DNA from: Alphaproteobacteria bacterium
GTDB lineage: Bacteria > Pseudomonadota > Alphaproteobacteria > CAAHEQ01 > UBA3637
Reading direction: 5' to 3'
DNA: 64,000 bases
Assembly: GCA_045536135.1 (NCBI GenBank)
Contig: JAZSNA010000003.1
Location: 45,108 to 109,107 of the forward strand
This document shows, piece by piece, positions 7,392 through 45,851 of this stretch. Under the pieces are notes generated by a model that saw only the letters and a program-made list of their open reading frames with translations, did no database searches and was not told the DNA's origin. The position numbers were made by a program, and so were the translations under genes. The stretch's first letter is position 1, and every line of letters begins with the position of its first letter.

Positions 7392-7393
7392 CA

Positions 7394-9222: not shown

Positions 9223-9232
9223 AGGGAAAAAG

Positions 9233-11360: not shown

Positions 11361-11452
11361 TTTATATTCCTTTTGATTTTATCAGTCTTAGATGAACAGT
11401 AACAAACAATTTAAAAAAAATCAACTTTTTTTAATGGTTTCGGCTAAACCTC

Positions 11453-11481
11453 TTGACAATAAAAGATAAAAAAAGTATTCT
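11453..11481 (+). promoter_or_regulatory. sigma70-like promoter TTGACA-17-TATTCT for the distal half of the island
   Basis: TTGACA at 11453-11458 and TATTCT at 11476-11481 with a 17-nt spacer. A strong AAAGGAGG RBS precedes the ATG at 11508. Confidence 0.4.
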
Positions 11482-11507
11482 TAAGGCAATAATCCAAAGG
11501 AGGAAAC

Positions 11508-12437
11508 ATGTCAATCTTTGCATTTAAACTTCGAAACCGTTTTATAAAACCATACGCAACCGGATATCTGCCCACACAGGATGGACATCAAATTTTTTAT
11601 CAAGAAGTTGGCAATCCAAAAGGGGAACCAGTCATAGTGTTTCATGGTGGCCCCGGAAGTCAATGCTATCCATTTTTTGCTTGCACATTTAATCTAAAAA
11701 AACAACGAGTTATCATGTTCGATCAACGCGGATGTGGCAAATCTAAATTCGATAAGCCGCTCTATAAAAATACTTCACAAAATACGATAAATGACGCTAT
11801 AAGACTTCTGGAACATTTAAATATTTCTGAAAAAATAGTTTGCACAGGAGGTTCTTGGGGGTCAACATTAGCGATATTATTTGCAGAAACATATCCTCAA
11901 AAAGTCAAAAAGATAATTGTAAATTGTATATTTTTAGGTCGAAAAAAAGATATAGAAAATATGACGCCGATTGCTTCATATTTTTACCCAGATGCTGTCG
12001 AAACCGTTAAGAAAGCTGCAAATGGAAAGGATTTGGATAGATATTATAGTGAATTGTTAGCTTCAAATAAAAGATCTGACCAAGAAAGGGCTGTCCAGTA
12101 CTATAAAAAACTTGAAAAAACAGCATGTGATGCCTCTTTGATAGTGGATTTTTCAAAAGGCGAAATATCCGATAAAGATATTTTGAAATTCCAAATTTTT
12201 ATGCACTATAAATACAATAATTATTTCTTGAAAGACAATCAATTACTAGTCAATGCTAAGAATATAAAAAATATTCCTACAGAAATTTATCAAAATCGCT
12301 TAGATTTCTGTTGTCCACCATATCAAGCTTATGAATTACATAAAGCTTTACCTAAAGCAAAATTCTATCTGATTCCTGATCGTGGACATGGAAGCGATAT
12401 GCTCTTTTATGAAATGTACAAAAATAATTTGGCGTAA
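11508..12437 (+). CDS. alpha/beta-hydrolase, proline iminopeptidase (S33)-like
   Basis: HGGPGS oxyanion motif and GGSWGS nucleophile elbow (G-x-S-x-G), with a C-terminal His, as in prolyl aminopeptidases. Confidence 0.55.
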   Translation: MSIFAFKLRNRFIKPYATGYLPTQDGHQIFYQEVGNPKGEPVIVFHGGPGSQCYPFFACTFNLKKQRVIMFDQRGCGKSKFDKPLYKNTSQNTINDAIRLLEHLNISEKIVCTGGSWGSTLAILFAETYPQKVKKIIVNCIFLGRKKDIENMTPIASYFYPDAVETVKKAANGKDLDRYYSELLASNKRSDQERAVQYYKKLEKTACDASLIVDFSKGEISDKDILKFQIFMHYKYNNYFLKDNQLLVNAKNIKNIPTEIYQNRLDFCCPPYQAYELHKALPKAKFYLIPDRGHGSDMLFYEMYKNNLA

Positions 12438-12452
12438 TTATAGGGGTTTTAC

Positions 12453-13370
12453 TTGAAGAAAAATAAAACATACAAAGAAATATGCCTTAGCGAATGTGAT
12501 AATGGGATAATTGGACATTTTTTATTGTGGGTTTATAAAAAATTTAATTATCCCCGTTTTTTATGGACACTTAAATTACGTTATTTAATTTTAGAGTATC
12601 TTGCGCGCAAATATGCCCTTTCTTCAATGGGAAAGCATTGTGAGATGCGAGCAAACTATATAAAAGAACTCTATAAAAATTGTAAAAAAGGACTATTTCC
12701 TAAAGGGCATTACACTTACAATAACGCTTTTACAAAGAAATATTTTTCATCTAAAAATAGGGGCTCTATTTTCCTAGTTATGGATGTTTTCTTTGATCAC
12801 AAAAAGAACGTTGAATACGGTAATTATTTATTAGAGGTTTTTGACCCTATTCATCGTCTAGACCTACAAAATTTTTACAAGAAATGGGATTCAAATGCTA
12901 AAAACATTAATTTTTATCTGTGGCTGGAAAAAAACTATCAGAGCTCACATATCCCGGAAATTGAATACTTAAGTGAATCTGAAAAAAGAAAGTGTGAACT
13001 TGTTAATCGTTTAGGAAAACTCTATGAAAAGAGAACAGGCAAACCTCTTACCACTGAACCGGATAAGGAATATATATTCATTTTGGATGATCAAAATCGA
13101 TTGTATGGAATTTATTCTTCAGAGCCTATTCGTCACACATCGCTATCATTAGGGAAACCAGTAATCTGCGTGGGTGATATTTCTGTTCGAAAAGGACAAC
13201 TTCTTAAAATATCTTTAGACAGTGGGCATTATCATCCAAAACTTCAGACATTAGTAGCTTTTAACAATTTTATTCAAATTCCAAAGAAAACAGTTATAGA
13301 ATTCTATGATGGTAATATGAAAACATCATCGACATGGAATGTAATCTCACATCAGATTGATATAGTTTGA
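12453..13370 (+). CDS. hypothetical protein
   Basis: 305-aa ORF with a TTG start and an AGGGG RBS. No recognisable motif. Confidence 0.3.
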   Translation: MKKNKTYKEICLSECDNGIIGHFLLWVYKKFNYPRFLWTLKLRYLILEYLARKYALSSMGKHCEMRANYIKELYKNCKKGLFPKGHYTYNNAFTKKYFSSKNRGSIFLVMDVFFDHKKNVEYGNYLLEVFDPIHRLDLQNFYKKWDSNAKNINFYLWLEKNYQSSHIPEIEYLSESEKRKCELVNRLGKLYEKRTGKPLTTEPDKEYIFILDDQNRLYGIYSSEPIRHTSLSLGKPVICVGDISVRKGQLLKISLDSGHYHPKLQTLVAFNNFIQIPKKTVIEFYDGNMKTSSTWNVISHQIDIV

Positions 13371-14622: not shown

Positions 14623-14803
14623 TGTTTTTTCCTTTCTTTAACCCAATATCTCGTACTCCGCTTACGCCAAGCACAATACCTAGTCCCATCAGCAGATATT
14701 CCCAATCCACGTTTGGGACACTAAAAAACGGGACAACCACGCAATTGTGGAATATCCCGTAGCATAAAATCCAACCAATCGTTGGTATCCATTTCCGTTT
14801 CAT
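14591..14803 (-). CDS. holin (putative)
   Basis: 70 aa with two hydrophobic helices and a charged C-terminus (KKGKNN). It is positioned between the endolysin and the spanins. Confidence 0.4.
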   Translation of the reverse strand: MKRKWIPTIGWILCYGIFHNCVVVPFFSVPNVDWEYLLMGLGIVLGVSGVRDIGLKKGKNNVDTHNNGLE

Positions 14804-15216
14804 AGAAGTGCAATTCCTTTCTGAATGGTTTCGTTTGAATAAGGCTGTATGCCGTTTTCGTGCCTGATGATCGCCTTGATAAATACAGTCAAAGTGCCGA
14901 TTTCGGTCAAATCAACTTTACCATCCGGTGTGATACCGAGCTGAGCGGCCACACTTTGGATATAGGCTTGTGTTTGGTTTTCACTCGGCGGAGCGTATCG
15001 GCTGATTATCTTTCTTGGCGTATCTAAACCGTATAGTTTTTGGTAATTTAGCAAAAGTCTTGCCAACGCTCTGATACCATAAACGGCCGATATAAATACA
15101 CAAAAGGACGGATCTTGTTCTTTCCCGTCCTGTTTTAATCCTAGCCAATTTTCTCCCCATCTGATGTTTCCAGGGTTATTGTTTCGAATGCCTCTTGGCT
15201 GTCGTGTTTGGTTCAT
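14800..15216 (-). CDS. putative endolysin / peptidoglycan hydrolase (RNNNPGNIR-motif family)
   Basis: 138 aa with a conserved RGIRNNNPGNIRWG segment seen in phage lysis or virion-associated muralytic proteins. It sits immediately upstream of the holin. The assignment is largely positional. Confidence 0.3.
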   Translation of the reverse strand: MNQTRQPRGIRNNNPGNIRWGENWLGLKQDGKEQDPSFCVFISAVYGIRALARLLLNYQKLYGLDTPRKIISRYAPPSENQTQAYIQSVAAQLGITPDGKVDLTEIGTLTVFIKAIIRHENGIQPYSNETIQKGIALL

Positions 15217-15439: not shown

Positions 15440-17662
15440 CTATTGATGTACTCGGCTATCTTCAATAACCGCTGTTATTTCTACCTTGGTGGAGCGTGGA
15501 TGTATGCCCGTTACACGTGCAAGTACACTCCATTTATCGGCGGTTCCAAAGGCAAAATGCGTTCGTTCTGCATCTGTGCCGGTTAAGATGTCAATGTCCG
15601 GTTCTTCCGATAAGATAACTTCGGTCGTCAATGCTCCGGGAGTGACGACAAAAGGTCCTGATAAAGACCCGTTTTTCTTTCGTAATGCCAAATAATGTGT
15701 TTGACCTTCTTCAAACTTGACCGGTTCGGACAGGCTTAGTGTCAGACCTTTCTTTTCCGTCACTTCTCCGCCTTGGCCCCATTTAGCCATATCGTGAGTG
15801 ATAGCGATCAGATCTCCATAACTCGGCACCAGTCCTTCCAGTTCTGTTGTGAAGTTGACAATACGTCTGCGGTATCGGTTGGCCAACGCCATATAAGTTG
15901 CTTCTCTTAATGCTTGGTCTTTGTTTGTGCATCCAAATAGCTCAACTGTCGCTGTTTTATCTGAAGATGAACCTTCAAAAGAGCCAACGACTTCGGAGGT
16001 TTTCCAAGTCTTTTCCGAAAAATACTGAACACAAACGCTGTCGGCTGTGTCTTCGGACGGCATCACATATTGTATAGATAGGCTGTTTTTTACAATATTT
16101 CGTGGTCCGAAAAGTGCTACAGGTATGTTTTTCGGCTCGTCCCGGACGAAACGAACAATACCACCTTGAATAAAAGGAATAGCTCGTCCAACTCGGGCTG
16201 TTCGGGATAAGGCTTCATAAACCGTCAGTTTGCTATCAAACACGCCGTTAAAGGTATCGCCTCGGCTGTTCCACGTCTGGTCAAGGTTATAAAGAGCTTG
16301 CAGATCTATGGATTTATCAGCAAGTCCGGCACCGTATGATGCTCTTAAGATATCTGCCAACACCCAAGCCACAGAACGGGTCGCTACCGGCGATGACCAC
16401 CCGGAAGTCGGAGACCAAGTAGGCAGTTTTCTTGTGACGATACAGTTGACCATACGTGACGAACGCTGTGATAAGTTATCGGTGGCACGCATCGTAATGG
16501 CAAGCAATGTCACATTCCCGTAGTCCTTATCCGATACGATGTAGCCTTTGGCTGAACCCCAACGAATTTCATGTCCGGCACGTGAAGATGTGTCTTTGGC
16601 ATCTAACCGGGTAGCTCGGACCTCATATCTGCCGGTTGTTACCGAATAGGTATAGGTTTGATACATAGCGTTATGGTTATTGCTTGTGATACTTTCTGTT
16701 CCAAGGGTTACCCAGTCACCCAGCGCTTTATCTTCATCATCTATTCGTCTGGCATCGATACGCCATTGAATGGTTTTATTGGCCATGGTTCCATTGTCGT
16801 TTGCGTAATAACAGCCTCGTTGAAATGCCACATCAATTTCAATTTTATTGATAACGCTTTCGGTCGGGTTTAACACAAACGGACCACAAATGGTATCCTT
16901 TAACAGTTCCTGACCGGCCACTTCATTGGAAGTTACCACATCTTCTTCAAAAAGCGTGTTTTTACCTCCGGGTGGAATGATTTGATAGGTTATTTCTTCA
17001 AATGAGCTGATCGGCGTGTCCTCAATTCGTATCTGTTCGACATTGTATTCGCCTTGACCTATGCAATGAAGCTGATAGACGTATTGCTCGTTGTTTGCAT
17101 ATTTATAATAAGGCTGACTGGCAAAATCCGGATATATCAGGTGGCGGCCGTAAATAACAGGGATTGGATTACCAAGGCGAGCCTGATTACCTTGCGCTTG
17201 TAAGGAATAAGTCGGACTTTGAGTCAGGCTTGATGTTGTCATTCCATTAAGCGATGCTTTAGGTGTTGGCACAAAGGTATTAATTAAAATTCCGCCACCG
17301 ACAGAAACAGCCGCCGCAGCAACGCCACCCCAAAAGGCACCATAAGCAGCTCCCACAGCACCGCCTGTATAAACAGTAGCAACAATTAAGGCCACCGTTA
17401 GAACAATTTGCAAAGGGTTTGAACTTTTGCCTCCACCACCCTGTGGCAGAGCTACAAAACTAACCACCGCTTTTTGATGTAGAGTAATGTTCCAGTCTTT
17501 TCTGAGTTTTGCCACACCATCAACCAAACAGACTGTTGGTCGGCTTAAATCAATTTTTTGCTCTTTAACGATTTGCCAAACGGTTTGTTTTCCGGGCAAG
17601 GCTTTGCTTATCCGTCCCTTGTTTGGATTAAACGGATTTGTTAGATAATTAAAATAAACCAT
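15440..17662 (-). CDS. tail tip / host-specificity protein (lambda J-like position)
   Basis: 740 aa, the last large tail gene after the K-like gene. It has a Gly/Ala-rich hydrophobic N-terminal segment. Confidence 0.5.
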   Translation of the reverse strand: MVYFNYLTNPFNPNKGRISKALPGKQTVWQIVKEQKIDLSRPTVCLVDGVAKLRKDWNITLHQKAVVSFVALPQGGGGKSSNPLQIVLTVALIVATVYTGGAVGAAYGAFWGGVAAAAVSVGGGILINTFVPTPKASLNGMTTSSLTQSPTYSLQAQGNQARLGNPIPVIYGRHLIYPDFASQPYYKYANNEQYVYQLHCIGQGEYNVEQIRIEDTPISSFEEITYQIIPPGGKNTLFEEDVVTSNEVAGQELLKDTICGPFVLNPTESVINKIEIDVAFQRGCYYANDNGTMANKTIQWRIDARRIDDEDKALGDWVTLGTESITSNNHNAMYQTYTYSVTTGRYEVRATRLDAKDTSSRAGHEIRWGSAKGYIVSDKDYGNVTLLAITMRATDNLSQRSSRMVNCIVTRKLPTWSPTSGWSSPVATRSVAWVLADILRASYGAGLADKSIDLQALYNLDQTWNSRGDTFNGVFDSKLTVYEALSRTARVGRAIPFIQGGIVRFVRDEPKNIPVALFGPRNIVKNSLSIQYVMPSEDTADSVCVQYFSEKTWKTSEVVGSFEGSSSDKTATVELFGCTNKDQALREATYMALANRYRRRIVNFTTELEGLVPSYGDLIAITHDMAKWGQGGEVTEKKGLTLSLSEPVKFEEGQTHYLALRKKNGSLSGPFVVTPGALTTEVILSEEPDIDILTGTDAERTHFAFGTADKWSVLARVTGIHPRSTKVEITAVIEDSRVHQ

Positions 17663-17666: not shown

Positions 17667-18071
17667 TTAACTTTCTTTCACTCGGTAATAACTGTCAAGG
17701 TACCAACCGCAGGTGTTTAATGAGCGGACATTTTGGAATACAACGCCGCTATCCCGAACACAGTGCAAAACACCACCGCCGTCTATGTCTAACCATAACC
17801 CGGCATGAACGGGATTTTTGGATTGTCTCATCAAAACAACATCTCCGTTGTGAGGTGCCGGCACTTCAATAAAGGCTTGAAATGCCAAATCCACCTTAAA
17901 GGCGTGCAGGACATCTCTTAAATTATTCGGATTAATGTTGACCGGTGGCACATCATGGCCAAACTCGTGCAACAGCACATAACGGACAAAGCCCCAACAA
18001 TCAAAACTGTCAGGGCCTTGTGCTCCGGCGATCCATGGTCGCCCGATATACTTTAATGCAAAATGTGTCAT
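17667..18071 (-). CDS. tail assembly protein with NlpC/P60 peptidase fold (lambda K-like)
   Basis: 134 aa with an FDCWGFV catalytic-Cys motif of NlpC/P60, plus downstream His. Position between the L-like and J-like genes. Confidence 0.5.
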   Translation of the reverse strand: MTHFALKYIGRPWIAGAQGPDSFDCWGFVRYVLLHEFGHDVPPVNINPNNLRDVLHAFKVDLAFQAFIEVPAPHNGDVVLMRQSKNPVHAGLWLDIDGGGVLHCVRDSGVVFQNVRSLNTCGWYLDSYYRVKES

Positions 18072-18610
18072 CTTGATAATCCCGGATACTTTTTAACGGT
18101 GTAGTTTTTTGCAGGAAACGACTTGTTGCCGATGTCCATCATTCGAGCTGTGGCCGATATTTTAGAAATATCCGCTGTAACTTCAGTAATAACCAATGTA
18201 ATCGGCGGATCCATTTGTGGCGTACTTAAATCGTTTGTCAGATATGGGCGATAGGTCATTTCTATCATATCCTGCGTTTCAACAGCTCTATCCAAGTATT
18301 TGATGATTTCTGTTGAAACGTTATCGATGGACAAAGTAATCTCCGGTACCGGTATAGCCTCAACTGGCGGCAATTCCAAATCAAATGCCAACGCCTGAAA
18401 CTCAACTTCATCTCCCGGATTAAGCGGAGCGGTGTCTTCAAGCCTACAGGTATAGTTCTTATTATCCCTGACAATACGAATGGCTGTTGGATTTCCTTTA
18501 TCGTCAACAAAAGCCGGATGCCTTAACTCCAAGGTGTGCAGTAAAACAACTTCACTTGGTGCCGATGCATAAGCCTCTTTAAGAGCTTCTGAGATAGTGT
18601 TATCTGTCAT
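18068..18610 (-). CDS. minor tail protein (lambda L-like)
   Basis: The N-terminus ASAPSEVVLLHTLEL resembles lambda L QSASVVLWEIDL. The start was moved to the ATG at 18610, which has an AGGAGG RBS. Confidence 0.4.
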   Translation of the reverse strand: MTDNTISEALKEAYASAPSEVVLLHTLELRHPAFVDDKGNPTAIRIVRDNKNYTCRLEDTAPLNPGDEVEFQALAFDLELPPVEAIPVPEITLSIDNVSTEIIKYLDRAVETQDMIEMTYRPYLTNDLSTPQMDPPITLVITEVTADISKISATARMMDIGNKSFPAKNYTVKKYPGLSR

Positions 18611-18618: not shown

Positions 18619-20142
18619 CTAATATCCAACGGCAATCCACGAAATATTACCACGTCGGCGACCTGTTGAATCTGAATCCATATACCTAATTGTAAAAGCT
18701 GTCGTTGACGCACTCATAACTACTGCACAATAGTTTGTATCACTAGTGGCATTTGTCGGTTGTCCAAATGGGGTAATAACCACACTAATGACCGCAGAAG
18801 AAAAGGCTTTTGGAAAAGTAACTGAAAAGTCGGCATCAGAAGTAATGTTTATCCGTCCGCCTTGAGTAATTAAACCTGTTACACTATTCTTTTCCCAAAA
18901 GGATGTTGAGCTTTTAGAATAACTACCTGTTTTATTGTAAAGAGTGCTTGCCGCCACATTTCCTAAATTCAAATCAGCTTTATTTGTAAGTAGATTCCTT
19001 ATCTCTGTTGTATTTTCTTCTGACAATGGTCGGCTGATGTCTGCACATTTGATGTAAACCAGTTCATAATATGATTTAGGTCGGGTTTCATTCCCATAAC
19101 GAGGAGAACCGCAATTACTAATTTCTCCTATTGTTTTTAGTGCATTAAAGTCTGCACTTCCGGAGTGGTTTTCGGAATATGACCATACTGTTGCTGTGTC
19201 AGTTCCTGATTTTTTTGTTCTGTTGAGTGAACCATAGTGATAGTGTCCTTGAAATTGGTCATTTAAAACTGTTCCAAGATTATCTGTTGTACCACTTCGG
19301 GCATAGTTTTTCAAAAGTGGCAGAATAACTGTGTCATTATCAACCTTAACATATGAGGCACACATGCCATAGCTTGAAACTTGGCTGTCATAAGTGCTTT
19401 CAGTCGTAAAAACTAGATAATTCGTATCGACTAATTGTTCAAAAAAGTCCGGATATCTTGCTCGAGTAATCGTGTTTTTATACCATACAGGCTCATAACC
19501 ATCAGGAACTTTTGTATTTGCAGGAACACTTAACTTTGACCCCAATGGAGCCGGAGCACAGCTTTCTGCATAATATTTAGAAAGATTTGCCTGTTCCGTT
19601 GCCAATGCAATTTGTTTTGTTCCTTCCGATTTTACGTTATTAACCTGCGTACTCCCTGAGGAATTAATAGAACTTATTTGGGAAGTAGCTGTTGAGTTTA
19701 TTGTACTAACTTGTGTTGCTCCGTTATTTTTTATCGTAGAAACTTGGGCTGAAGCCTCTGTTTGTATGTTTGAAATGGCTGTGTCCGTAGATGTAGAAAT
19801 GTTGTTAAACACCTCAAGAGCCTGGTTTTTGATACCTAAAACATCCGTTTTTAATTGGGCAGTTTCTGTTTTAATGGTATTTGTCTGTGTTTTTAACTGA
19901 TTTGTAGCGTTTTTTGCCGCAATTGCCTCATCACGAGCCGCTTCTGCCTCAGCCACAACATCCGATACACCTCCAGTTATTTCAGTACGAACATCTTTTA
20001 ATTGTTTAGCAACTGTTGGAATATTTCCTTTTTCAGTTGGCACAGTTGTTTTATCGTCACCATGAATAATTAAATGCCATTTAGATCCGTCCGTTTCAGC
20101 CTGAGAAACAACGGCTTGTAATCTTTCTTCCATATTTGCCAT
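18619..20142 (-). CDS. tail fibre protein (paralog 3, 507 aa)
   Basis: Conserved N-terminus MANMEERLQAVVSQAETDGSKWH... shared with the two upstream paralogs. Central Ser/Thr-rich repeats (STIKNNGATQVSTINSTATSQISSINSSGSTQV). C-terminus ends ...IAVGY. Confidence 0.55.
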   Translation of the reverse strand: MANMEERLQAVVSQAETDGSKWHLIIHGDDKTTVPTEKGNIPTVAKQLKDVRTEITGGVSDVVAEAEAARDEAIAAKNATNQLKTQTNTIKTETAQLKTDVLGIKNQALEVFNNISTSTDTAISNIQTEASAQVSTIKNNGATQVSTINSTATSQISSINSSGSTQVNNVKSEGTKQIALATEQANLSKYYAESCAPAPLGSKLSVPANTKVPDGYEPVWYKNTITRARYPDFFEQLVDTNYLVFTTESTYDSQVSSYGMCASYVKVDNDTVILPLLKNYARSGTTDNLGTVLNDQFQGHYHYGSLNRTKKSGTDTATVWSYSENHSGSADFNALKTIGEISNCGSPRYGNETRPKSYYELVYIKCADISRPLSEENTTEIRNLLTNKADLNLGNVAASTLYNKTGSYSKSSTSFWEKNSVTGLITQGGRINITSDADFSVTFPKAFSSAVISVVITPFGQPTNATSDTNYCAVVMSASTTAFTIRYMDSDSTGRRRGNISWIAVGY

Positions 20143-20144
20143 TA

Positions 20145-20945
20145 TTAACTTCCTTTACAAGGGATAAATGTTAATTCTCCTGCCGTCAGCTTAACAACAT
20201 CACCTACATCAACTAAAAAAGATAAGCTATTGTATTCTTCCCAGTTTCCATAAGAACCATATTGTCTGAATACTGTAACGCCATTTATATAGCCAGTGAT
20301 GTTACTGTTGTAGACTGTGTTACGCATGAGTACCCAACCAATCTGTGAAATTGTTACGTCTGTATTCAAGGAAAGTATGGTTTTTTTTGACCAGTTTGGG
20401 CATAGCCAACGCATTAGTTGAATGATTGATGTTTTAGAAATGTTTGATAGTGATATATCTAATTTACTGCTTGTCGCATTTTCTGCTCGTTCTGCCTGTG
20501 CAGTTGCTTCGGCCACTTCTTCTATAGCAGCTGATTTTACGTTTGCAATCTGTGTTGTGCCTTCTATTTGAATATTGGAAATCCCTTGAGAAACGGCAGT
20601 TGATACGGAGTTGAACGTTGTCTGAGCCATGTTTTTGTAGTTTTCGGCCGTATTTCTAAATTCCTGTGTATCTGATTTTAACTGTTCTATTTCGGATTTG
20701 ATAACAAGAGCGTTATCTAGAACGGCACTTGTTTCGTTTTTTGCCTGCAAACAAGAGCCTAAATAATCAGCCGCACCATTAATCAACTCATTTCGCACAT
20801 CATTTAGCTGTTTTGATACAGACGGAATCTTGCCATTTTCAGTTGATACAGTTGTGGTATTATTTCCATGTATTATCGTATGCCAAAGCGAACCGTCTGT
20901 TTCAGCCTGAAACACAACGGCTTGAAGTCTTTCTTCCATATTCAT
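20145..20945 (-). CDS. tail fibre protein (paralog 2)
   Basis: Start trimmed to the internal MNMEERLQAVVFQAETDGSLWH (the track ORF extends upstream into the previous gene). The N-terminal ~150 aa are near-identical to paralog 1, and the C-terminus diverges. Confidence 0.5.
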   Translation of the reverse strand: MNMEERLQAVVFQAETDGSLWHTIIHGNNTTTVSTENGKIPSVSKQLNDVRNELINGAADYLGSCLQAKNETSAVLDNALVIKSEIEQLKSDTQEFRNTAENYKNMAQTTFNSVSTAVSQGISNIQIEGTTQIANVKSAAIEEVAEATAQAERAENATSSKLDISLSNISKTSIIQLMRWLCPNWSKKTILSLNTDVTISQIGWVLMRNTVYNSNITGYINGVTVFRQYGSYGNWEEYNSLSFLVDVGDVVKLTAGELTFIPCKGS

Positions 20946-20956
20946 CTTATAAATCC

Positions 20957-21793
20957 TTAATAACCTATTGCCATCCATCCAATTCCAAGTTGCCAATTGC
21001 AACCATTTTGAGCAATTCCACCAGTTAAAGTTACCGAATGAACTCCACATCCTGCATCGCTTCCATTATTAAAACCATAATAGAAAGTTGCTTGAGTTGA
21101 TATTACTGCCGTTGGAAAAGCTTCGGGGAACGTAAAACTAGCTTGACTATCGCCATTAACAACAATTTTTCCAAATTGAACGATAATTATTCTTACTGTG
21201 TTATCTGCTAAAATAGTTGGAAATTTAATAACTGTTCCATTATCATTAGATGTAAATTTGCAGGTTTTTAGTAAGCTATTCAAATTTATATTTGAACAAT
21301 CAATATTTAATTTACTGTCGACGGCATTTTCTGCTCTGTCTGCTTGTGCTGTTGCTTCTGCCACTTGTTCGGCGGCGGCCAGTTTTACCTGTGAAATTTG
21401 TGTGGATCCTTCTGTTTGGATATCAGCAATTCCTTGAGATACAGCGGATGACACCGAATTGAATGTCGTTTGAGCCATATTTTTATAGCTCTCGGCCGTA
21501 TTTCTAAACTCTTGGGTGTCGTTTTTTAGCTCTTCGATTTGAGATTTTATAACAAGTGCATTGTCCCGAAGCGCTGTCGTTTCTGTTTTAGCTTGCAAAC
21601 ATGAACCCAAATAATCAGCCGCTCCATTTATTAATTCATCTCTTACATCTTTTAGTTGTTTGGCAACAGACGGGACTTTTCCATTTTCCGTTAATACAGT
21701 TGTTGCGTTGTTTCCATGAATTATCGTATGCCAAAGGGAGCCGTCAGTCTCTGCCTGAGACACAACGGCTTGTAATCGTTCTTCCATATTCAT
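20957..21793 (-). CDS. tail fibre protein (paralog 1)
   Basis: MNMEERLQAVVSQAETDGSLWHTIIHGNN... N-terminus. C-terminus ends ...MAIGY, like paralog 3. Confidence 0.5.
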   Translation of the reverse strand: MNMEERLQAVVSQAETDGSLWHTIIHGNNATTVLTENGKVPSVAKQLKDVRDELINGAADYLGSCLQAKTETTALRDNALVIKSQIEELKNDTQEFRNTAESYKNMAQTTFNSVSSAVSQGIADIQTEGSTQISQVKLAAAEQVAEATAQADRAENAVDSKLNIDCSNINLNSLLKTCKFTSNDNGTVIKFPTILADNTVRIIIVQFGKIVVNGDSQASFTFPEAFPTAVISTQATFYYGFNNGSDAGCGVHSVTLTGGIAQNGCNWQLGIGWMAIGY

Positions 21794-21794: not shown

Positions 21795-22277
21795 TTATAA
21801 ATCCTCTATTTGTTTTGTACAGGTCTCATGGACGTATTCGTGTAAGCGGTTAACTGCCAACACCAATTTATCGTAATCGCAGTCTAATAAAATGTTTAAT
21901 GCACCTTCAGACAAGGTCGGACGGTCTCGGATTTCCAGTTCAGAGGTTATTTCCCACAAATAGCCGTTTAGGAGTTTTGCCTCGAACTGTTGAGTAAAGC
22001 GAGCCTCTTGTTCCAGTAGTCCTAAACCACCAAGCAATGTGATGTAAAACCATTCGGCTCCTTCCTTTGCGTGGTATTTATACCATGCCTCGAAAAGAGA
22101 AAATTGCTCTCGGTTCATCACCCACCGCACCGAAATTTTAGACGGCGTTTGAGTATAACGCCGCCTTTGTCTTGCTGGACCTGATTCCATGTCGGTTCGC
22201 ACAATGGCTTCTCCGGGCTTAATTGCATATCCTTCCGTTGTCGGATAAGGCAGATGTTGAGGAAAATATACTGTCAT
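21795..22277 (-). CDS. minor tail protein (lambda M-like)
   Basis: EQFSLFEAWYKYHAKEGAEWFYITL resembles lambda M EATVLESFLEEHGGWKSFLWT. It lies immediately downstream of the tape measure gene. Confidence 0.4.
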   Translation of the reverse strand: MTVYFPQHLPYPTTEGYAIKPGEAIVRTDMESGPARQRRRYTQTPSKISVRWVMNREQFSLFEAWYKYHAKEGAEWFYITLLGGLGLLEQEARFTQQFEAKLLNGYLWEITSELEIRDRPTLSEGALNILLDCDYDKLVLAVNRLHEYVHETCTKQIEDL

Positions 22278-24892
22278 CGATAACTCCCAAATGCCGGATT
22301 AAGGGCATAACGTTGTTCCAAAATAGGCGATAAACCTTCGCCCTTAGATATGTTTTTACCAATTGTGCTTTCAATTTGCTCAACAATTACATCAATGGAC
22401 ACGTTTCCACTGGCATCTTTATTTGCCGTTGCTGAAGCCTTTGTGCCTGATGAGTTATTGTGAACATTAACATTAACATTGACGGGATTTTTTGAGTTTA
22501 ACTCTGTCCCGAGTGCGTCCATTTGTCCTTTTGTGAAGACGGTTTCTCCACGTTTTGCGATGATCGGGATTTCGTCTCCGACCAAACCGCCGGTATGATA
22601 GCGAGTAGCACCTTCAAAAACATCAGGACTAATCTGCCGAGAAGATAAAGTATCCGTACCAATTACACCTCCTGTATGAGCCATCGGCACGCCAAAGTAT
22701 CCCATTATCCCACTCATGATGGGTTTGATAACGGCATATTGAATGGCCATCCGGACCATACCTTCAACAATAGAATTAACAAAATCCGAAAAACTAGCTT
22801 TGCCTGTCATAACGAACTCGGTCAGAGTGTCTTCCATGGCGGTAAACGAGTTTTTTACAATGTTCTCGGTTGCTTTTGCCATGTCGGTTACATCAGCATA
22901 CGAGCTTTGCAAGCTGCGAGTGAGACCGTCTTTCCAATTGGTTGAGTTTTTCAAGGCGGCATCACTTGCTTTTTTGACCATATCATCATAAACACGATTA
23001 ACATCAGCTTTGAAATCTTCATACCCGGCCTTAGTGCTATCAAGGTTCGCCAAAGCATTATCACGCCATTCGGCCGCTTTTTGCATAGCCTGATCATATG
23101 GCTCTTGTAATTCAAAGACTTTCTTTTTTATGTCCTCTATGTTTTTCTCATAGGCTGAAGTATCAACTGTCGGCAGTTGTTCTGTCTGTTGTTCCAGTTC
23201 TTTTTTAGGTCGAAGCTCCGGATTGTTGATGTATTCCAGTTCCTTTCGGGCATCCCAAGCATCTTGTCGAGCTGCTTTTAATAACAGGAGTTTTTCCTGA
23301 ATGGCATCGGCTTGTGGCTTGAAGTCCGGATATTCCGCTGCCAGCTCCCAAACCTTTTTCTCATATTCATCAAGGTTATACTTTGATTCAGAGAGGATTT
23401 CAGCCAAATCGTTTGCAAAAATCTCGTATTCATCAAGCATAAAGTTCGGAGCATGACGTTTGAAAAACGAGATGCCGCCGGTGTTTTTTAGCTCTTTTTC
23501 AAGGTCTTTGACGTTCTTTTCTGCGATTTTTAGCTTGTGCGACCATTCGGCAATGGCTTGGTTCTTCGACAGAGTATTCATATAAGTCGAAGTTTCCTTG
23601 ACGGTTTCTGCCATTTGGTCTTTGAGTTTTTGCAATGTGTCGGCATGATCATTGGCGGCTCGCTTTGCCACATCATGACTATCCACGAGCTTATAAAGAC
23701 CATAAGCCAGTGCTAAAACAAGGCCGGCAGGACCACCAAGAAGAGCCAATGCACCTTTCAAAACATTGGCCGCTACAGTTGTTGCATACATCTGAACGGC
23801 GGCCAGTTTAGAAACCTGCCACATCATACGAAGACCGAGTGTCGCCGTTGCTCCAGCTGTCCCAGTTCCTAAAAGTGCGGCATTTAAGGATAAAACTGAA
23901 CCTTTAAGAAGTGTCCAAGTTTTGATAATAGCGGCAGAACCCAAACGAACAGTTAAGAGCGTGATAATCGGTTCGATATTATTTGCCAAGGCAAAAAAGG
24001 CTTTGCCTGCCACATTTACAGCCGTTGCCAAAGCTCCACCGATAGATTTTGCGGTACTGTTTGAACCGGATACAAGCGTGTTAAATTGTTCCAACACACC
24101 TTTAATGGCATCATTTAGTCCGCTTTCACCAATGGTTCGGGCAACTTTTGCCATGGCATCTTCAATGTTTGACATCGTTCCGCCCATGGTGTTCATCTGT
24201 TCAGCCATAGCTCCACCGAAGTTAATGTTTCCGATAGATCGCAAATATCGTTCGATTTCGGTCGCATTTTTAGCCACTTCTGTTGTAACGCCTTGGAAGA
24301 TGAACTTAACCGTTTCACCTTCAACTTTGGCTTTGATACCAAAGGTTTTCAGTCTTTCAAACTCGCCAACGGTTGCAGAAGTTACTGCAGAAACAAACTC
24401 CAAGATGTTCTTACCAAAGGCTGATGCCGTATTACCATAAGAGGTTAAGGCTTCCATTGAGGGTTCCAAGCCCATCGCCTTTAATCGGATAAAGCTATCA
24501 ACGATTTCATCAAGTTGATACGGGGTTGATGTGGCAAAGTCTTCAATTAAAGAAAATGCTTCCTTTGCCGCTTTTGCAGATCCGGTCACAGTTTTTAATG
24601 ATCCGGATAACCTTTCAAATTCGGCATTAACTCCGACAATTGACTTAAATGTTGAGGTTAAACCACGTAAACCGAGGTAGGCTCCGGCAAGACCTGCCGC
24701 TTGTTTTAGTACGCCATTAAAGGTTTTGGCCGTTTCATTTATGACTTTCAGGTTGTCATTGGCCGGTGTGATGACATTTGTAATCTGACGAAAAGCCTTT
24801 GTGCCGTCCGTCCCAATGGACTTAAACTCCTGACGGACTTTATCACCGCCAACTGCCTCAAGTCTGATGGATAGTTTCTTTGCTGCTCCCAT
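22274..24892 (-). CDS. tail tape measure protein (lambda H-like)
   Basis: 872 aa, Ala/Gly/Lys-rich and largely helical. It follows the G/GT chaperone pair. Confidence 0.8.
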   Translation of the reverse strand: MGAAKKLSIRLEAVGGDKVRQEFKSIGTDGTKAFRQITNVITPANDNLKVINETAKTFNGVLKQAAGLAGAYLGLRGLTSTFKSIVGVNAEFERLSGSLKTVTGSAKAAKEAFSLIEDFATSTPYQLDEIVDSFIRLKAMGLEPSMEALTSYGNTASAFGKNILEFVSAVTSATVGEFERLKTFGIKAKVEGETVKFIFQGVTTEVAKNATEIERYLRSIGNINFGGAMAEQMNTMGGTMSNIEDAMAKVARTIGESGLNDAIKGVLEQFNTLVSGSNSTAKSIGGALATAVNVAGKAFFALANNIEPIITLLTVRLGSAAIIKTWTLLKGSVLSLNAALLGTGTAGATATLGLRMMWQVSKLAAVQMYATTVAANVLKGALALLGGPAGLVLALAYGLYKLVDSHDVAKRAANDHADTLQKLKDQMAETVKETSTYMNTLSKNQAIAEWSHKLKIAEKNVKDLEKELKNTGGISFFKRHAPNFMLDEYEIFANDLAEILSESKYNLDEYEKKVWELAAEYPDFKPQADAIQEKLLLLKAARQDAWDARKELEYINNPELRPKKELEQQTEQLPTVDTSAYEKNIEDIKKKVFELQEPYDQAMQKAAEWRDNALANLDSTKAGYEDFKADVNRVYDDMVKKASDAALKNSTNWKDGLTRSLQSSYADVTDMAKATENIVKNSFTAMEDTLTEFVMTGKASFSDFVNSIVEGMVRMAIQYAVIKPIMSGIMGYFGVPMAHTGGVIGTDTLSSRQISPDVFEGATRYHTGGLVGDEIPIIAKRGETVFTKGQMDALGTELNSKNPVNVNVNVHNNSSGTKASATANKDASGNVSIDVIVEQIESTIGKNISKGEGLSPILEQRYALNPAFGSYR

Positions 24893-25582
24893 GTATTCCT
24901 TCTTTCATGCCATGTATGGCTGTGGGTAAGAGTTCTGTCATTATTGCCATATCAAATCCAAGGTTTTGAGCAATTTCAAAGGCTGTTTTCAAATCCGGCT
25001 CAGGAAGTTTAAGCAAAACCTCCCAAGCCTGATAACCTTCCGCTGTTTTTAAGCTTGTTTCGATGTATCGGCACTTGTGGATTGGGCAGTTTGTTTTTTC
25101 GCCACATCCTTGGCAGTAGGTTCGTCCGTCTCCGAAGTGCCATTTTGAGCGGACGTAAAGGCGTTTTTTTCGGCCTCTAAAATCTCTTGAATGCCACAGT
25201 ATTGTTGACGGAAGTTTTCTGCCACCACCCAAAAGTTTGAAAATAACTCTTCAATCTTTTCAGGTGTAAGCGGTGCTTTTTCATCACTTTCTGCTTCCAA
25301 AACACCGTCCCATTCTATGATGCCGGCCAACGCTAAACCGAGGATTAGGTTCTGATCGGCGAAGGCTTCACGTTTTGAAACATCTTCCAAATTCGGAATT
25401 GACGGATCTTGGATACCGTTTTCTTTATTGCTTTTATAAAGTTTGGCCGTTTCAGATACTCGGTTGTTCATGAAGGCTTTTGCTTCATAAAACACAGCCG
25501 AAGTACAAGGTTTTACTTTAACTTTTACACCGGATCCAAGCTCTAACCAGTAAGGTTCTTTTTGAATTTTAAGTTTTAACAT
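24858..25582 (-). CDS. tail assembly chaperone GT (programmed -1 frameshift fusion, ~240 aa)
   Basis: The -1 frame ORF (24858-25232) overlaps G. The A_AAA_AAC heptamer sits in the correct zero-frame phase, and the predicted junction is ...EAEK-KKRLYVRSKWH.... Confidence 0.5.
25049..25582 (-). CDS. tail assembly chaperone G
   Basis: 177 aa, lying immediately upstream of the tape measure gene and downstream of the major tail gene. It overlaps a -1 frame ORF. Confidence 0.6.
   Translation of the reverse strand: MLKLKIQKEPYWLELGSGVKVKVKPCTSAVFYEAKAFMNNRVSETAKLYKSNKENGIQDPSIPNLEDVSKREAFADQNLILGLALAGIIEWDGVLEAESDEKAPLTPEKIEELFSNFWVVAENFRQQYCGIQEILEAEKNAFTSAQNGTSETDEPTAKDVAKKQTAQSTSADTSKQA
25163..25169 (-). 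promoter_or_regulatory. slippery heptamer A_AAA_AAC for the G/GT -1 ribosomal frameshift
   Basis: Minus-strand GAA AAA AAC GCC decodes E-K-N-A of G (residues 138-141). Codons AAA and AAC are in P/A-site phase. Confidence 0.55.
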
Positions 25583-26523
25583 TAGTATGCCTCCACATCA
25601 TTAACGAGTGAAACAGTAATCATTTTGCCAAGTGTAGGGTCTTTAGCTCCTTGGAAATCATAGGAACATTCAACACCACCTGGACCATTAACGGAGCGTT
25701 TTGGTTTAGGCAGATAAACCTCATGACAGGTAATAACCAGTTTTTGAGTGTCGGATATTTGATATCCCAGTTCTAAATCAACCGGAGTACCGGCACGAGC
25801 CTTATCCATCAAAGCGTTGTCACCATACCTGACCGAAATCGAACCGGACAAAGAGGCAACGCCCAAGTCAATGGCTTCTACTTTTCCGTCATTTCGGATT
25901 GTTTCAATCTTTTCAAGGTTGTTTGAGTAAGTGACACTTGCCGATGTAATATTGGCCAATGCTTTACCTTCAGACTTGATGAAGCCTTGGAATTGAGAAA
26001 AACGGGTATAAGAAAGCACATCGGGACTTGCCGCAATAGTTGTGTTTGAGGCTGTTTCACCTTGAGCCAATAAGGACACCGTTACTTGGGCTTCACCGGA
26101 TCGGGCGAAGTTAAAGGCGATGCTGTCAGCCTTGACACCCAAGAAACGGATAAACTCCGGAACTTCGGGCAAGCCAACTTCTAACGTATAACTGGGCAGA
26201 GAAACTTTACCGCTTTCATACGTATGCGTAAATGCACTACCATCTTCGGCAGTTGTCGGTGTCCCAAAGATAGCCTTGAGCCAAATACCGATGTTTCTTA
26301 AATCTACCGGCACAGCCAGTTCGCCACCGACATTAATCACATCTTGGAACGGTGTTGTCGGGTCTCGGCCCAAACCCAGCACGTTTGATGAAATCAAGCC
26401 TTGTTCACTATCTATGGTGCTTGATGCAAACGGCACTTGTGTATATTTACCGTCAGAAAGCGTGCCGTAGGTACTTTCTTCAGCAATTAATAGTTTTGAG
26501 TTCCATCCATAAGCTCTTGCCAT
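25582..26523 (-). CDS. major tail protein (lambda V-like position)
   Basis: 313 aa. It lies between the U-like and G genes. Confidence 0.5.
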   Translation of the reverse strand: MARAYGWNSKLLIAEESTYGTLSDGKYTQVPFASSTIDSEQGLISSNVLGLGRDPTTPFQDVINVGGELAVPVDLRNIGIWLKAIFGTPTTAEDGSAFTHTYESGKVSLPSYTLEVGLPEVPEFIRFLGVKADSIAFNFARSGEAQVTVSLLAQGETASNTTIAASPDVLSYTRFSQFQGFIKSEGKALANITSASVTYSNNLEKIETIRNDGKVEAIDLGVASLSGSISVRYGDNALMDKARAGTPVDLELGYQISDTQKLVITCHEVYLPKPKRSVNGPGGVECSYDFQGAKDPTLGKMITVSLVNDVEAY

Positions 26524-34563: not shown

Positions 34564-34659
34564 TTATTTTCCCTTTTATGCAACAATTAACTGGATATAA
34601 TTGTAAATCCAAGCATTCATTGTGTTGTGTTAAACCTAATCAATGAAAGGACTTATAAG

Positions 34660-35019: not shown

Positions 35020-35020
35020 C

Positions 35021-35056
35021 AAAAAAGGTGCGGTTAACTGCCGCACCTTTGTTTTT
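35021..35056. terminator. bidirectional rho-independent terminator
   Basis: aaaggtgcgg-ttaactg-ccgcaccttt is a perfect 10-bp stem flanked by an A-run on the 5' side and a T-run on the 3' side. It sits between convergent genes. Confidence 0.6.
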
Positions 35057-37115: not shown

Positions 37116-37219
37116 GAAAATCCTCACTTTTGATATAAAACTTTTAGTATTCTATGAAATGCCAAAATAAAAAGCAACAAAAATTAAGTTTTTTGTTACT
37201 TCAATGCCACAATTTGACA

Positions 37220-37775: not shown

Positions 37776-37776
37776 T

Positions 37777-38271: not shown

Positions 38272-38299
38272 CGTTCATTCCTTTCCATCTTAAGTTTTG

Positions 38300-38372: not shown

Positions 38373-38411
38373 TTATTTTGAAAATAAGTGCTTGTTTTTC
38401 AATAATTTTTA

Positions 38412-39024: not shown

Positions 39025-39050
39025 TTTAAGCTCCTTTTGTTATTGTTTTT

Positions 39051-45850: not shown

Positions 45851-45851
45851 T

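What the first reader, a model, noticed from the sequence alone, without database searches (positions are those of the whole stretch)
18619..21793. Three tandem tail-fibre paralogs sharing a conserved N-terminal anchor but divergent C-termini, inserted between the M-like and L-like genes
All three begin MNMEERLQAVV(S/F)QAETDGS(L/K)WH(T/L)IIHG..TTV.TE.G.IP.V.KQL.DVR.E. Paralogs 1 and 2 stay near-identical for about 150 aa and then diverge. Paralog 3 adds long Ser/Thr-rich repeats. Paralogs 1 and 3 end with the same W(M/I)A(I/V)GY tail. This looks like a receptor-binding-domain diversification cassette (multiple fibres, or a reservoir for recombinational host-range switching). Its location inside the tail-tip assembly block (M | fibres | L K J) is atypical, since lambda side fibres follow J. 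The nucleotide-level N-terminal repeats (about 450 bp at up to roughly 90 percent identity) are also assembly and recombination hazards.
Basis: seen in the sequence. Interest (0 to 1): 0.6.

Follow-up and report, generated by a model that had tools for sequence, protein, structure and literature searches.

The report
Three tail fibres sharing one anchor
A prophage of an uncultured gut alphaproteobacterium carries three intact, side-by-side tail-fibre genes with the same short attachment end and different host-binding tips, which is an ordinary phage host-range strategy seen here in a poorly studied phage group.

Summary
The three tandem paralogues are real: minus strand, 20957-21793, 20145-20945 and 18619-20142. 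All are intact, each has its own ribosome-binding site, and they sit between the M-like and L-like tail-tip genes.

They share a ~58-aa N-terminal module (69-88% aa identity). Behind it is a long predicted helix with coiled-coil character, then different tips. Fibres 1 and 3 end in the lectin-fold "foot" of R-pyocin, AP22 gp53 and RcGTA fibres. Fibre 2 ends in an unannotated small beta-sandwich.

It is 78% over 450 nt, at most 85% in any 60-nt block, and the longest exact run is 17 nt. Synonymous divergence is saturated (dS >1, dN/dS about 0.05-0.16). These are old duplicates under purifying selection, not an assembly or recombination hazard.

The M | fibre | L placement is normal for this clade. 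It occurs in nearly all of about 80 related loci, with 1-4 anchor-bearing fibre genes, and the same slot holds a fibre gene in cultured phages JWX and BcepGomr.

Comparison with close relatives shows recurring breakpoints at domain junctions. Both tip types occur on short and long shafts, so tips are exchanged between phages as modules.

Best reading: a multivalent set of homotrimeric receptor-binding fibres. This is a new member of a known kind, of modest interest.

The parts
22274..24892 (-). Tape measure protein (872 aa), immediately upstream of the module
   Evidence: ORF. Orthologues carry Pfam TMP_3 and Tape_meas_lam_C.
21795..22277 (-). M-like protein (160 aa), the presumed distal tail protein. 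The fibre cassette starts 1 nt after its stop codon.
   Evidence: phrog_384 at E 4e-39. Homologous to D3 orf21 and JWX gp22 in the same position after the tape measure gene. No PDB sequence match. The distal-tail-protein role is inferred from position only.
20957..21793 (-). Fibre paralogue 1 (278 aa): anchor aa 1-58, long helix to ~165, variable neck 166-202, lectin-fold foot 203-278
   Evidence: Pfam Gp53-like_C at 30.3 bits against a cutoff of 24.9. R2 pyocin fibre 6CT8/6CL6 at E 1e-6 and AP22 gp53 4MTM at E 0.035, weak. GAGGA Shine-Dalgarno site. The 90% cluster has 15 members, 14 of them 276-278 aa.
21620..21793 (-). N-terminal anchor module of paralogue 1 (aa 1-58)
   Evidence: Alignment A4. 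The profile finds 253 clusters; among the 150 listed hits nearly all match at about residues 1-58.
20145..20945 (-). Fibre paralogue 2 (266 aa): anchor 1-58, single long helix 43-159, linker, helix 171-181, beta-sandwich head 189-263
20148..20450 (-). Head domain of paralogue 2 (aa 166-266; WLCPxW...F(I/M)PCKG type)
   Evidence: The same domain ends both 266-aa and 499-aa fibres in other phages. The breakpoint with relatives lies at 20476-20485.
18619..20142 (-). Fibre paralogue 3 (507 aa): anchor 1-59, helix with six 11-residue repeats, conserved middle domain 191-300, variable segment 301-346, neck, lectin-fold foot 422-507
   Evidence: Pfam Gp53-like_C at 48.1 bits. Foldseek to 6CL5/6CXB/6CL6/6CT8/4MTM at E 7e-8 to 5e-6. 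P0121 is 100% identical and comes from an NCBI contig of 111 kb.
19591..19788 (-). Six 11-residue (hendecad) Ser/Thr-rich repeats in the shaft of paralogue 3 (aa 119-184)
   Evidence: Autocorrelation peaks at lags 11 and 22. Relatives carry a different number of repeats (P0170).
18622..18879 (-). Foot (Gp53-like_C / H-type-lectin fold) of paralogue 3
   Evidence: pLDDT about 90; H_lectin hit in 16 of 30 homologues.
18068..18610 (-). L-like minor tail protein (DUF1833). The cassette ends 8 nt before its ATG.
   Evidence: Pfam DUF1833 at E 8e-38 and phrog_396. AGGAGG Shine-Dalgarno site before the ATG at 18610. Similarity to relatives resumes exactly at 18611.
17667..18071 (-). K-like NlpC/P60 tail protein
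   Evidence: Pfam NLPC_P60 at E 2e-10.
15440..17662 (-). gpI-gpJ fusion tip protein (740 aa) lacking lambda J's C-terminal fibre and receptor-binding part
   Evidence: PDB 8IYK_I (gpI) at E 2e-6 for aa 59-178. 8IYK_J at E 6e-8 for aa 340-661, aligned to lambda J 171-524. Pfam FNIII-A_GpJ and Phage-tail_3.

Best explanation
The three genes encode three different side fibres of one lambda/D3-like siphovirus prophage. All three are made from the late tail operon.

Each fibre has three parts. The first is a shared ~58-residue N-terminal docking module (helix, beta-hairpin, start of a long helix). The second is a long shaft predicted as a single continuous helix with coiled-coil character; I infer it trimerises into a coiled coil. 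The third is its own distal receptor-binding tip: a lectin-fold 'foot' on fibres 1 and 3, and a small beta-sandwich on fibre 2.

The shared module plugs each fibre into the same site on the tail tip. The site is not identified. The M-like ring (as for lambda Stf) and the J-like protein (as for RcGTA) are the two precedents.

The J-like protein here lacks a receptor-binding C-terminus. The fibres therefore probably provide primary host recognition, most likely of surface glycans or LPS.

Over evolutionary time, tips (with neck, and sometimes an accompanying small ORF) are swapped between phages at the shaft/tip junction, and whole genes are duplicated or lost. Related prophages consequently carry 1-4 such fibres.

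Shown: the gene anatomy, the homologies, conservation, copy-number variation and mosaic breakpoints.

Inferred: trimerisation, co-assembly on virions, the docking partner and the ligand.
For: - Anatomy and intactness. Each gene has its own Shine-Dalgarno site, gaps between genes are 1-11 nt, and no terminator or promoter enrichment was found.
- Foot homology by sequence: Pfam above the curated cutoff and PDB hits to R-pyocin fibres and AP22 gp53.
- Foot homology by fold: plus H-lectin hits. R-pyocin feet bind core LPS (PMC6363177). The RcGTA fibre has the same foot (PMC7296036).
- The N-terminal module behaves as a docking module:
  - It is conserved among the paralogues with dN 0.06-0.22 against dS 1.3-1.4.
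  - It lies immediately after the M gene in about 70 of 83 loci, including Betaproteobacteria and Magnetospirillum.
  - It was found in 253 protein clusters. Among the 150 listed hits nearly all match at about residues 1-58, on proteins of about 30 to over 1000 aa (many short ones are fragments). Three of ten long hits scanned carried recognisable domains: endosialidase-chaperone, GDSL esterase and RCC1.
  - Distant members hit phrog_4549 'tail fiber protein'.
- Fold: the AF2 model of P2 has a helix-hairpin N-terminus and a single 117-residue helix, at pLDDT 88.
- Copy number of 1-4 in relatives.
- Recurrent breakpoints at window 20476-85, 19237-44 and 18611.
- Both head types occur on both shaft types, 83/96 and 60/52.
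- The J-like protein is truncated relative to lambda J.
Against: - There is no direct evidence that any of the three proteins is in virions, or that all three are present on one particle.
- Oligomeric state was not modelled.
- The docking partner is unknown. The M-like and L-like proteins have no solved homologue detectable by sequence.
- Fibre 2's head has no recognisable homologue, so its receptor-binding role rests on position and architecture only.
- The middle domain of fibre 3 could not be modelled (pLDDT below 50).
- The host is uncultured, so no host-range data exist.
Confidence: 0.75

Rival explanations
1. Silent-cassette reservoir. Only one fibre is used at a time, and the other copies are spare receptor-binding cassettes that are recombined into the expressed gene through the shared 5' repeats.
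For: There are tandem direct repeats of the 5' ends, and the tips are clearly modular across phages.
Against: - All copies are full-length with their own Shine-Dalgarno site and start codon.
- All are under strong purifying selection with dS above 1, and all are intact in relatives.
- The longest exact identity between copies is 15-17 nt. By my own knowledge this is below what efficient RecA recombination needs.
- Orthologues are closer to each other than paralogues are, so there is no sign of recent gene conversion.
- No invertase-type inverted repeats or DGR template repeats were found.
Confidence: 0.06
2. One composite (branched or hetero-oligomeric) fibre. The three proteins are subunits of a single complex, for example with paralogue 3 as the primary fibre and paralogues 1 and 2 attached to it, or as mixed trimers of paralogues 1 and 2.
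For: - P1 and P2 have gap-free shafts of equal length at 79-88% identity, so mixed coiled coils are sterically conceivable.
- Branched multi-RBP complexes are well known (PMC11414711, PMC6872550).
- Sister lineages have one anchor-bearing protein followed by anchor-less putative binding proteins.
Against: - In known branched systems the secondary binding proteins carry a different docking peptide. Here all copies carry the same N-terminal module.
- Copy number varies from 1 to 4 with any combination of heads, so no copy depends on another.
- The heads of P1 and P2 are different domain types: P1's is a Gp53-like_C lectin-fold foot by Pfam and PDB sequence match, P2's is a modelled beta-sandwich.
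- The P3 shaft is longer, with extra repeats.
Confidence: 0.1
3. Not tail fibres. These are coiled-coil lectin proteins that decorate another part of the virion (head or neck fibres, whiskers), or they are morons with a non-structural role.
For: There is no virion data. Morons do occur inside this tail operon in relatives, for example Fic, AbiE and HipA.
Against: - The slot directly after M holds an anchor-bearing gene in about 70 of 83 loci.
- The genes are translationally packed within the tail-tip genes.
- The C-terminal feet are homologous to bona fide tail-fibre tips.
- PHROG hits are to tail fibre families.
- The same slot in JWX and BcepGomr holds annotated tail fibres.
Confidence: 0.05
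4. Assembly artefact. The tandem copies come from a mis-assembled or duplicated repeat.
For: The window comes from a metagenome-assembled genome. One database protein, P0025, looks like a chimeric assembly.
Against: - The copies differ by 15-50% at the nucleotide level and have different 3' halves.
- The same arrangement was recovered independently from many samples and assemblers.
Confidence: 0.01

Closest known systems
RcGTA tail fibre Rcc00171 (Rhodobacter capsulatus gene transfer agent; PMC7296036)
   Same: - It is an alphaproteobacterial siphovirus-type tail with distal tail protein, hub, NlpC/P60 peptidase and J-like 'megatron'.
- The fibre has an N-terminal helical rod, a middle domain and a C-terminal foot. 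The paper reports the foot as homologous to R1-pyocin 6CXB and AP22 gp53 4MTM, the same structures that P1 and P3 match.
- The receptor is presumed to be a sugar.
   Different: - RcGTA has a single fibre gene, encoded away from the main cluster, and the fibre docks on the megatron.
- Here there are 1-4 tandem genes inside the tail-tip operon, with a longer helical shaft.
- No direct sequence comparison with Rcc00171 was possible.
R1/R2 pyocin fibres (6CL5, 6CL6, 6CT8, 6CXB) and Acinetobacter phage AP22 gp53 (4MTM); Pfam PF21882
   Same: The C-terminal lectin-fold foot matches by sequence and by predicted fold. The pyocin feet determine subtype specificity by binding core LPS (PMC6363177, PMC6116203).
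   Different: Those fibres belong to contractile tails or tailocins, have different N-termini and shafts, and occur as one fibre gene plus a chaperone. Fibre 2 here lacks this domain.
Fibre gene in the M-L slot of Achromobacter phage JWX (gp23-gp24) and Burkholderia phage BcepGomr (gp18-gp19)
   Same: The gene order is the same: tape measure | M-like | small ORF + 'tail fiber protein' | DUF1833 L-like | NlpC/P60 K-like | J. The J proteins are 38-39% identical to the window's.
   Different: - Those phages have a single fibre with a Collar domain.
- They lack the N-terminal module described here, tested with an HMM built from 362 sequences with filters off.
- Their M protein is about 360 aa and their J protein is full length.
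Ur-lambda side tail fibre Stf (PMC12617516)
   Same: These are side fibres additional to the J tip. Their N-terminal domains anchor at the gpV/gpM junction and contact gpM. This makes a fibre gene placed next to M structurally sensible.
   Different: - The Stf N-domain is a six-stranded beta-sheet that forms a dodecameric collar. The module here is predicted as helix-hairpin-helix.
- stf lies after J and is accompanied by tfa.
- Stf has a T4 gp37-like tip that binds OmpC.
Multi-RBP phages with conserved N-terminal anchors and exchangeable C-termini (Ackermannviridae TSP1-4, Klebsiella KP32-type dual RBPs; PMC11414711, PMC6872550)
   Same: Several receptor-binding proteins are carried per virion to widen or hedge host range. 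N-terminal structural parts are conserved, and the specificity domains are swapped horizontally.
   Different: Those systems are branched: secondary binding proteins dock on a primary one through distinct domains. Here every copy carries the same anchor, which implies parallel attachment or competition for the same sites. Those are myo- and podoviruses, not a lambda-like siphovirus.

Membership tests
Gp53-like_C / R-pyocin 'foot' receptor-binding domain (PF21882) | Sequence match above Pfam's curated cutoff (24.9 bits) | tested here: met
   P1 scores 30.3 bits (aa 203-278) and P3 scores 48.1 bits (aa 422-507). P2 has no hit.
Gp53-like_C / R-pyocin 'foot' receptor-binding domain (PF21882) | Lectin-type beta fold superposable on 6CXB / 4MTM | tested here: met
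   The P3 C-terminal model has pLDDT about 90. Foldseek gives E 7e-8 to 5e-6 at probability 1.0 to 6CL5, 6CXB, 6CL6, 6CT8 and 4MTM. Weaker hits go to H-type lectins. The P1 foot was not modelled.
Gp53-like_C / R-pyocin 'foot' receptor-binding domain (PF21882) | Binds LPS or another surface glycan of the target cell | not testable with these tools
   This needs binding assays, and the host is uncultured.
Lambda Stf-type side tail fibre | N-terminal six-stranded beta-sheet collar domain (Stf 1-94) | tested here: not met
   The AF2 model of P2 shows helix 3-26, hairpin 32-41 and helix from 43. There is no PDB sequence hit to Stf.
Lambda Stf-type side tail fibre | Gene located downstream of J, with a tfa chaperone gene | tested here: not met
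   The genes lie between M and L. Lysis genes follow J.
Branched multi-RBP complex (Ackermannviridae / KP32 type) | A primary binding protein with a branching domain, plus secondary binding proteins with a different docking peptide | tested here: not met
   All three proteins carry the same N-terminal module. Relatives function with a single copy.
Phage Tail Collar domain (PF07484), for the middle domain of fibre 3 | Profile match to Collar | tested here: not met
   No Pfam hit at E up to 10 for the isolated domain, or at E up to 1 for 30 homologues. hhalign against the Collar segment of P0113 gives probability 0.1. Only a weak BLASTP hint to JWX gp24 at E 0.028.
Programmed tail-fibre switching (DGR, or Gin/Cin-type invertible segment) | Template/variable repeat pair with a reverse transcriptase, or inverted repeats flanking alternative 3' ends with an invertase | tested here: not met
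   No second copy of any fibre segment exists elsewhere in the 64 kb. Inverted repeats in the locus are only 20-27 nt at 70-81%. The only recombinase I identified is the large serine recombinase at 44144-45877; only the larger ORFs were scanned.
RcGTA-type tail fibre (Rcc00171) | Attachment to the fibre-binding domain of the J-like megatron protein | not tested
   The Rcc00171 sequence and the megatron fibre-binding domain were not available for comparison. This needs multimer modelling or cryo-EM.

The most novel reading that the evidence does not exclude
The ~58-aa N-terminal module may be an undescribed, clade-wide docking domain. It has no Pfam family and no PHROG match for the window's copies.

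On this reading it defines a universal 'plug-in' slot next to the M gene in a large group of uncultivated lambda/D3-like prophages of Alpha- and Betaproteobacteria.

In the gut alphaproteobacterial lineage, up to four different fibres would compete for the same sites. That would give mosaic or stochastically mixed virions, a form of bet-hedging.

In sister lineages, one anchor-bearing coiled-coil protein would instead act as an adaptor for anchor-less binding proteins, such as RCC1 propellers or a second paralogue family.
Probability: 0.35. Interest if true: 0.5.

Novelty: new member of a known kind. Interest (0 to 1): 0.3.

Why it matters
Hosts of these prophages are uncultured gut Alphaproteobacteria from human, ruminant and rabbit gut metagenomes, and their phage-host recognition has not been studied.

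The locus is a clean natural example of modular receptor-binding proteins. It has a fixed anchor, a fixed junction motif (K-L/V-D/N-x-D/S-L-S-N-I/L/M) and interchangeable tips. That could guide annotation: the anchor and fibre 2's head currently have no family, and homologues are labelled 'hypothetical'. It could also guide chimeric fibre design.

It does not change how we understand phage host-range evolution.

Tried and rejected
- **Near-identical phages.** Megablast of 9.5 kb against 50,697 phage records gave no match. tblastn with P3 and with two distant anchor proteins found only one human-faecal metagenome record.
- **Collar domain in P3's middle region.** I suspected this from motifs such as PDGY..P, YPDFF, QGHxH and ETRPK..Y..YIK. 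Pfam and hhalign do not support it, so I dropped it to a lead.
- **Structure of P3 aa 185-507.** The middle domain was unusable (pLDDT below 50).
- **Pfam PF26208 as the anchor's family.** The database precomputed it for one homologue, but it was not reproduced.
- **The 108-120-aa ORF after the long fibre in L001, L013 and L014.** I suspected a tail-fibre assembly chaperone. It has no Pfam or PHROG hit, so this stays unproven.
- **Anchor homology in JWX gp23/gp24 and BcepGomr gp18/gp19.** None was found.
- **Source contig of the window.** An exact look-up in the contig index was not on record.
- **My greedy ORF census.** It under-counts in high-GC loci. I rely on the phmmer census instead.
- **Domain parsing.** It dropped some long fibres, including P3 itself, so those counts are lower bounds.
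Full report
**What is there**

All genes of the region lie on the minus strand and form the end of a lambda-like late operon. In transcription order they are:
- tail tube, 25582-26523
- two overlapping ORFs at 24858-25582 in the position of the G/GT tail chaperone (no family hit)
- tape measure, 22274-24892
- M-like protein, 21795-22277
- the three paralogues
- L-like DUF1833 protein, 18068-18610
- K-like NlpC/P60 protein, 17667-18071
- a 740-aa tip protein, 15440-17662
- an endolysin-like gene (14800-15216) and small downstream ORFs that are probably the lysis genes

The paralogues are P1 20957-21793 (278 aa), P2 20145-20945 (266 aa) and P3 18619-20142 (507 aa). The mechanical ORF of P2 runs up to 21050. 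Its real start is the MNMEERL codon at 20945, which has an AAGGA Shine-Dalgarno site and matches the 266-267-aa orthologues. Each gene has its own Shine-Dalgarno site. Gaps between genes are 1-11 nt, and the promoter/terminator scan shows nothing above background.

**Checking the observation**

The shared N-terminus, the shared W(M/I)A(I/V)GY end of P1 and P3, and the extra Ser/Thr-rich stretch of P3 are all real.
- P1/P2 are 88% identical over aa 1-58, 79% over 59-165, and 69% overall.
- P1/P3 are 72% identical over the first 58 aa and 39% overall.
- At the DNA level P1/P2 are 83% identical over the first 150 nt and 78% over 450 nt. Pairs with P3 are 75-76% and 54-60%.
- No 60-nt block exceeds 85%, and the longest exact runs are 15-17 nt.
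- Synonymous sites are saturated between copies (dS 1.3-2.0) while dN is 0.06-0.22.

So these are old duplicates kept similar by purifying selection. They are not recent repeats, and they are not a realistic assembly or homologous-recombination hazard.

The Ser/Thr-rich stretch of P3 is six 11-residue repeats (aa ~119-184) inside the helical shaft. The repeats are visible at the protein level only.

**What the proteins are**

The C-terminal ~80 residues of P1 and P3 match Pfam Gp53-like_C above its curated cutoff. By sequence they match the tips of R1/R2 pyocin fibres; P1 also matches AP22 gp53, though only weakly (4MTM, E 0.035). The AF2 model of the P3 C-terminus (pLDDT about 90) superposes on 6CL5/6CXB/6CL6/6CT8/4MTM at E 7e-8 to 5e-6, and more weakly on H-type lectins. 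Sixteen of 30 homologues also hit Pfam H_lectin. In R pyocins this 'foot' binds core LPS and sets subtype specificity (PMC6363177, PMC6116203). The alphaproteobacterial gene transfer agent RcGTA has a fibre with the same foot (PMC7296036).

The P2 model (pLDDT 88) has these elements:
- a helix at 3-26
- a beta-hairpin at 32-41
- one uninterrupted helix at 43-159
- a linker
- a short helix
- an ~80-residue beta-sandwich

The middle domain of P3 (aa 191-400) looked collar-like to me. Pfam and hhalign did not support this, and AF2 could not model it.

The 740-aa tip protein is a gpI-gpJ fusion. It stops about where lambda J's distal fibre begins. The phage therefore probably relies on the side fibres for recognition; this is an inference.

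**The shared N-terminus is a docking module**

A census of 83 loci was anchored on the M-like gene or on fibre homologues. An ORF with this module lies immediately downstream of M in about 70 of them. These include prophages of Cupriavidus, Dechloromonas, Polynucleobacter and Magnetospirillum.

A profile of the three window copies finds 253 clusters among 1.84 billion representatives. Among the 150 listed hits nearly all match at about residues 1-58, on proteins from fragments of a few dozen residues to over 1000 aa. Of ten long hits scanned against Pfam, three carried recognisable C-terminal domains: an endosialidase-chaperone domain, a GDSL esterase and RCC1 propellers. Distant members weakly hit PHROG 4549 'tail fiber protein'.

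This is the signature of an N-terminal anchor for exchangeable receptor-binding proteins. What it docks to is not shown. There are two precedents:
- Ur-lambda Stf N-domains clasp the gpV/gpM junction (PMC12617516). That would fit the gene's position next to M.
- The RcGTA fibre binds the J-like megatron protein.

**The location is not atypical for this clade**

Every related gut-alphaproteobacterial locus has the fibres between M and L. The cultured phages Achromobacter JWX and Burkholderia BcepGomr have a small ORF plus an annotated tail fibre in the same slot, but without this anchor. Pseudomonas phage D3 has M directly followed by L.

**Diversification**

In the window's lineage every fibre gene carries the anchor, and copy number varies:
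- one copy: L019, L039-41
- two copies: L002-4, L016, L026, L031-32
- three copies: the window, L001, L005-9, L013, L018, L020-23, L030
- four copies: L010, L014

The two closest relatives have M proteins 99% identical to the window's, yet one has three fibre genes and the other has four.

Nucleotide comparison with close relatives shows collinearity at 89-94% that stops at recurring points. The first is window 20476-20485, about P2 residue 155, just before the conserved neck motif. The second is 19237-19244, about P3 residue 300, just after DQFQGHYH. Collinearity resumes exactly at the L gene, at 18611.

Both head types occur on both the short (~270 aa) and long (~500 aa) scaffolds. The lectin foot splits 83 short to 96 long, and the P2-type head splits 60 to 52; these counts are lower bounds. 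Within orthologous sets the heads are well conserved, for example the P1 foot at 96%. The neck and the P3 301-400 segment vary most. Diversity therefore comes from module swapping rather than point hypermutation.

There is no sign of a programmed switch. No fibre segment is repeated elsewhere in the 64 kb, and there are no meaningful inverted repeats.

**Sister designs**

Other members of the clade have a single anchor-bearing coiled-coil protein (212-356 aa) followed by anchor-less genes. Betaproteobacterial prophages have two RCC1 beta-propeller proteins there (L055). One gut locus (L024) has a second paralogue family with its own shared N-terminus. This suggests, but does not show, that the anchor protein can also act as an adaptor.

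**Verdict**

The 'diversification cassette / multiple fibres' reading is supported. The 'atypical location', 'recombination reservoir' and 'assembly hazard' parts are not.

The most likely mechanism is three co-expressed fibres, probably homotrimers, that use one docking module and different tips, two of them lectin-type. This is a well-known phage strategy. The new elements are the unannotated anchor family, an unannotated head domain, and the parallel rather than branched arrangement on a lambda-like siphovirus of uncultured gut Alphaproteobacteria.

Noticed in passing
window 35055-37127 (-), within the low-GC stretch about 34000-38000: A GmrSD-family type IV restriction enzyme (GmrSD_N, GmrSD_C, DUF5655) sits inside the prophage in a 33-37% GC island, against 43-47% GC for the flanking structural genes. 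It is probably a defence moron.
   Followed up: partly
window 48765-56658 (-): A second phage-like region of podovirus type lies beyond tRNA-Pro (46833-46909). It has a T7-type terminase (48765-50213), a nozzle protein (50797-52707) and a head-tail connector (55240-56658). The two prophages are therefore adjacent.
   Followed up: partly
window 43427-46482: A large serine recombinase (44144-45877) is flanked by 46-nt direct repeats at 43427-43472 and 46437-46482 (85% identical), next to tRNA-Pro. It is the likely integration module, but the attachment sites were not defined.
   Followed up: no
window 15440-17662 (-): The tip protein is a fusion of a lambda gpI-like region (aa 59-178) with a gpJ-like region (aa 340-661, aligned to lambda J 171-524). 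It lacks lambda J's distal fibre and receptor-binding end.
   Followed up: partly
window 18610 / 18640: The L-like gene most likely starts at the ATG at 18610, which is preceded by AGGAGG. The GTG at 18640 would overlap fibre 3. Similarity to relatives also resumes at 18611.
   Followed up: yes
window 40568-40669, and 38294-38408 / 39045-39159: There is a tandem 51-nt repeat containing the palindrome-like AGTATGATACTA, and a 115-nt direct repeat pair (79% identical) in the early region of the prophage. These may be operator- or iteron-like sites.
   Followed up: no
window 39104-41957 (-): The prophage encodes a ParB-N6/N4 DNA methylase fusion (39104-40372) and a divergent S-adenosylmethionine synthetase-like protein (40956-41957).
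   Followed up: no
window 4677-13370 (+): The host flank next to the prophage has very low GC (29-33%). At least one of its genes is glycosyltransferase-like (a weak GT9 heptosyltransferase hit at 9233-10753), so it may be a surface-glycan locus beside a phage whose fibres carry lectin tips.
   Followed up: no
L055 9525-13522; also L043-L062, L075, L080: In betaproteobacterial prophages, one 212-aa anchor-bearing coiled-coil protein is followed by two ~550-aa RCC1 beta-propeller proteins before the L gene. This may be an adaptor-plus-propeller receptor-binding complex.
   Followed up: partly
L024 9492-14890: In one gut alphaproteobacterial locus, a single 356-aa anchor protein is followed by a second paralogue family (257, 184 and 474 aa) that shares a different N-terminus (KLKNxxGDYLxPYTxNIP...AGxV). 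Small 71-77-aa ORFs lie among them.
   Followed up: partly
L001 13149-13475; L013 12620-12982; L014 (120-aa ORF before L): Where the long fibre carries a different head (NGNWYR...GRLEQGG type), a 108-120-aa ORF is inserted before the L gene. The window lacks this ORF. It may be a head-specific assembly chaperone, but it has no Pfam or PHROG hit.
   Followed up: partly
L001 14073-16057; L002 2906-4543; L008 1573-3175; L003 14899-16894: Relatives carry defence or toxin morons inside or beside the tail operon: PH_gly_zipper and Fic between L/K/J, AbiEi/AbiEii between the chaperone and tape measure genes, HipA, and a CBASS-like SMODS/patatin pair downstream.
   Followed up: no
protein P0025 (388 aa, from a 2.1-kb ENA contig): This database protein joins the N-terminal half of the S49 prohead protease to a fibre starting at MEERLQAVV. 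It is most likely a chimeric metagenome assembly or a deletion variant.
   Followed up: no
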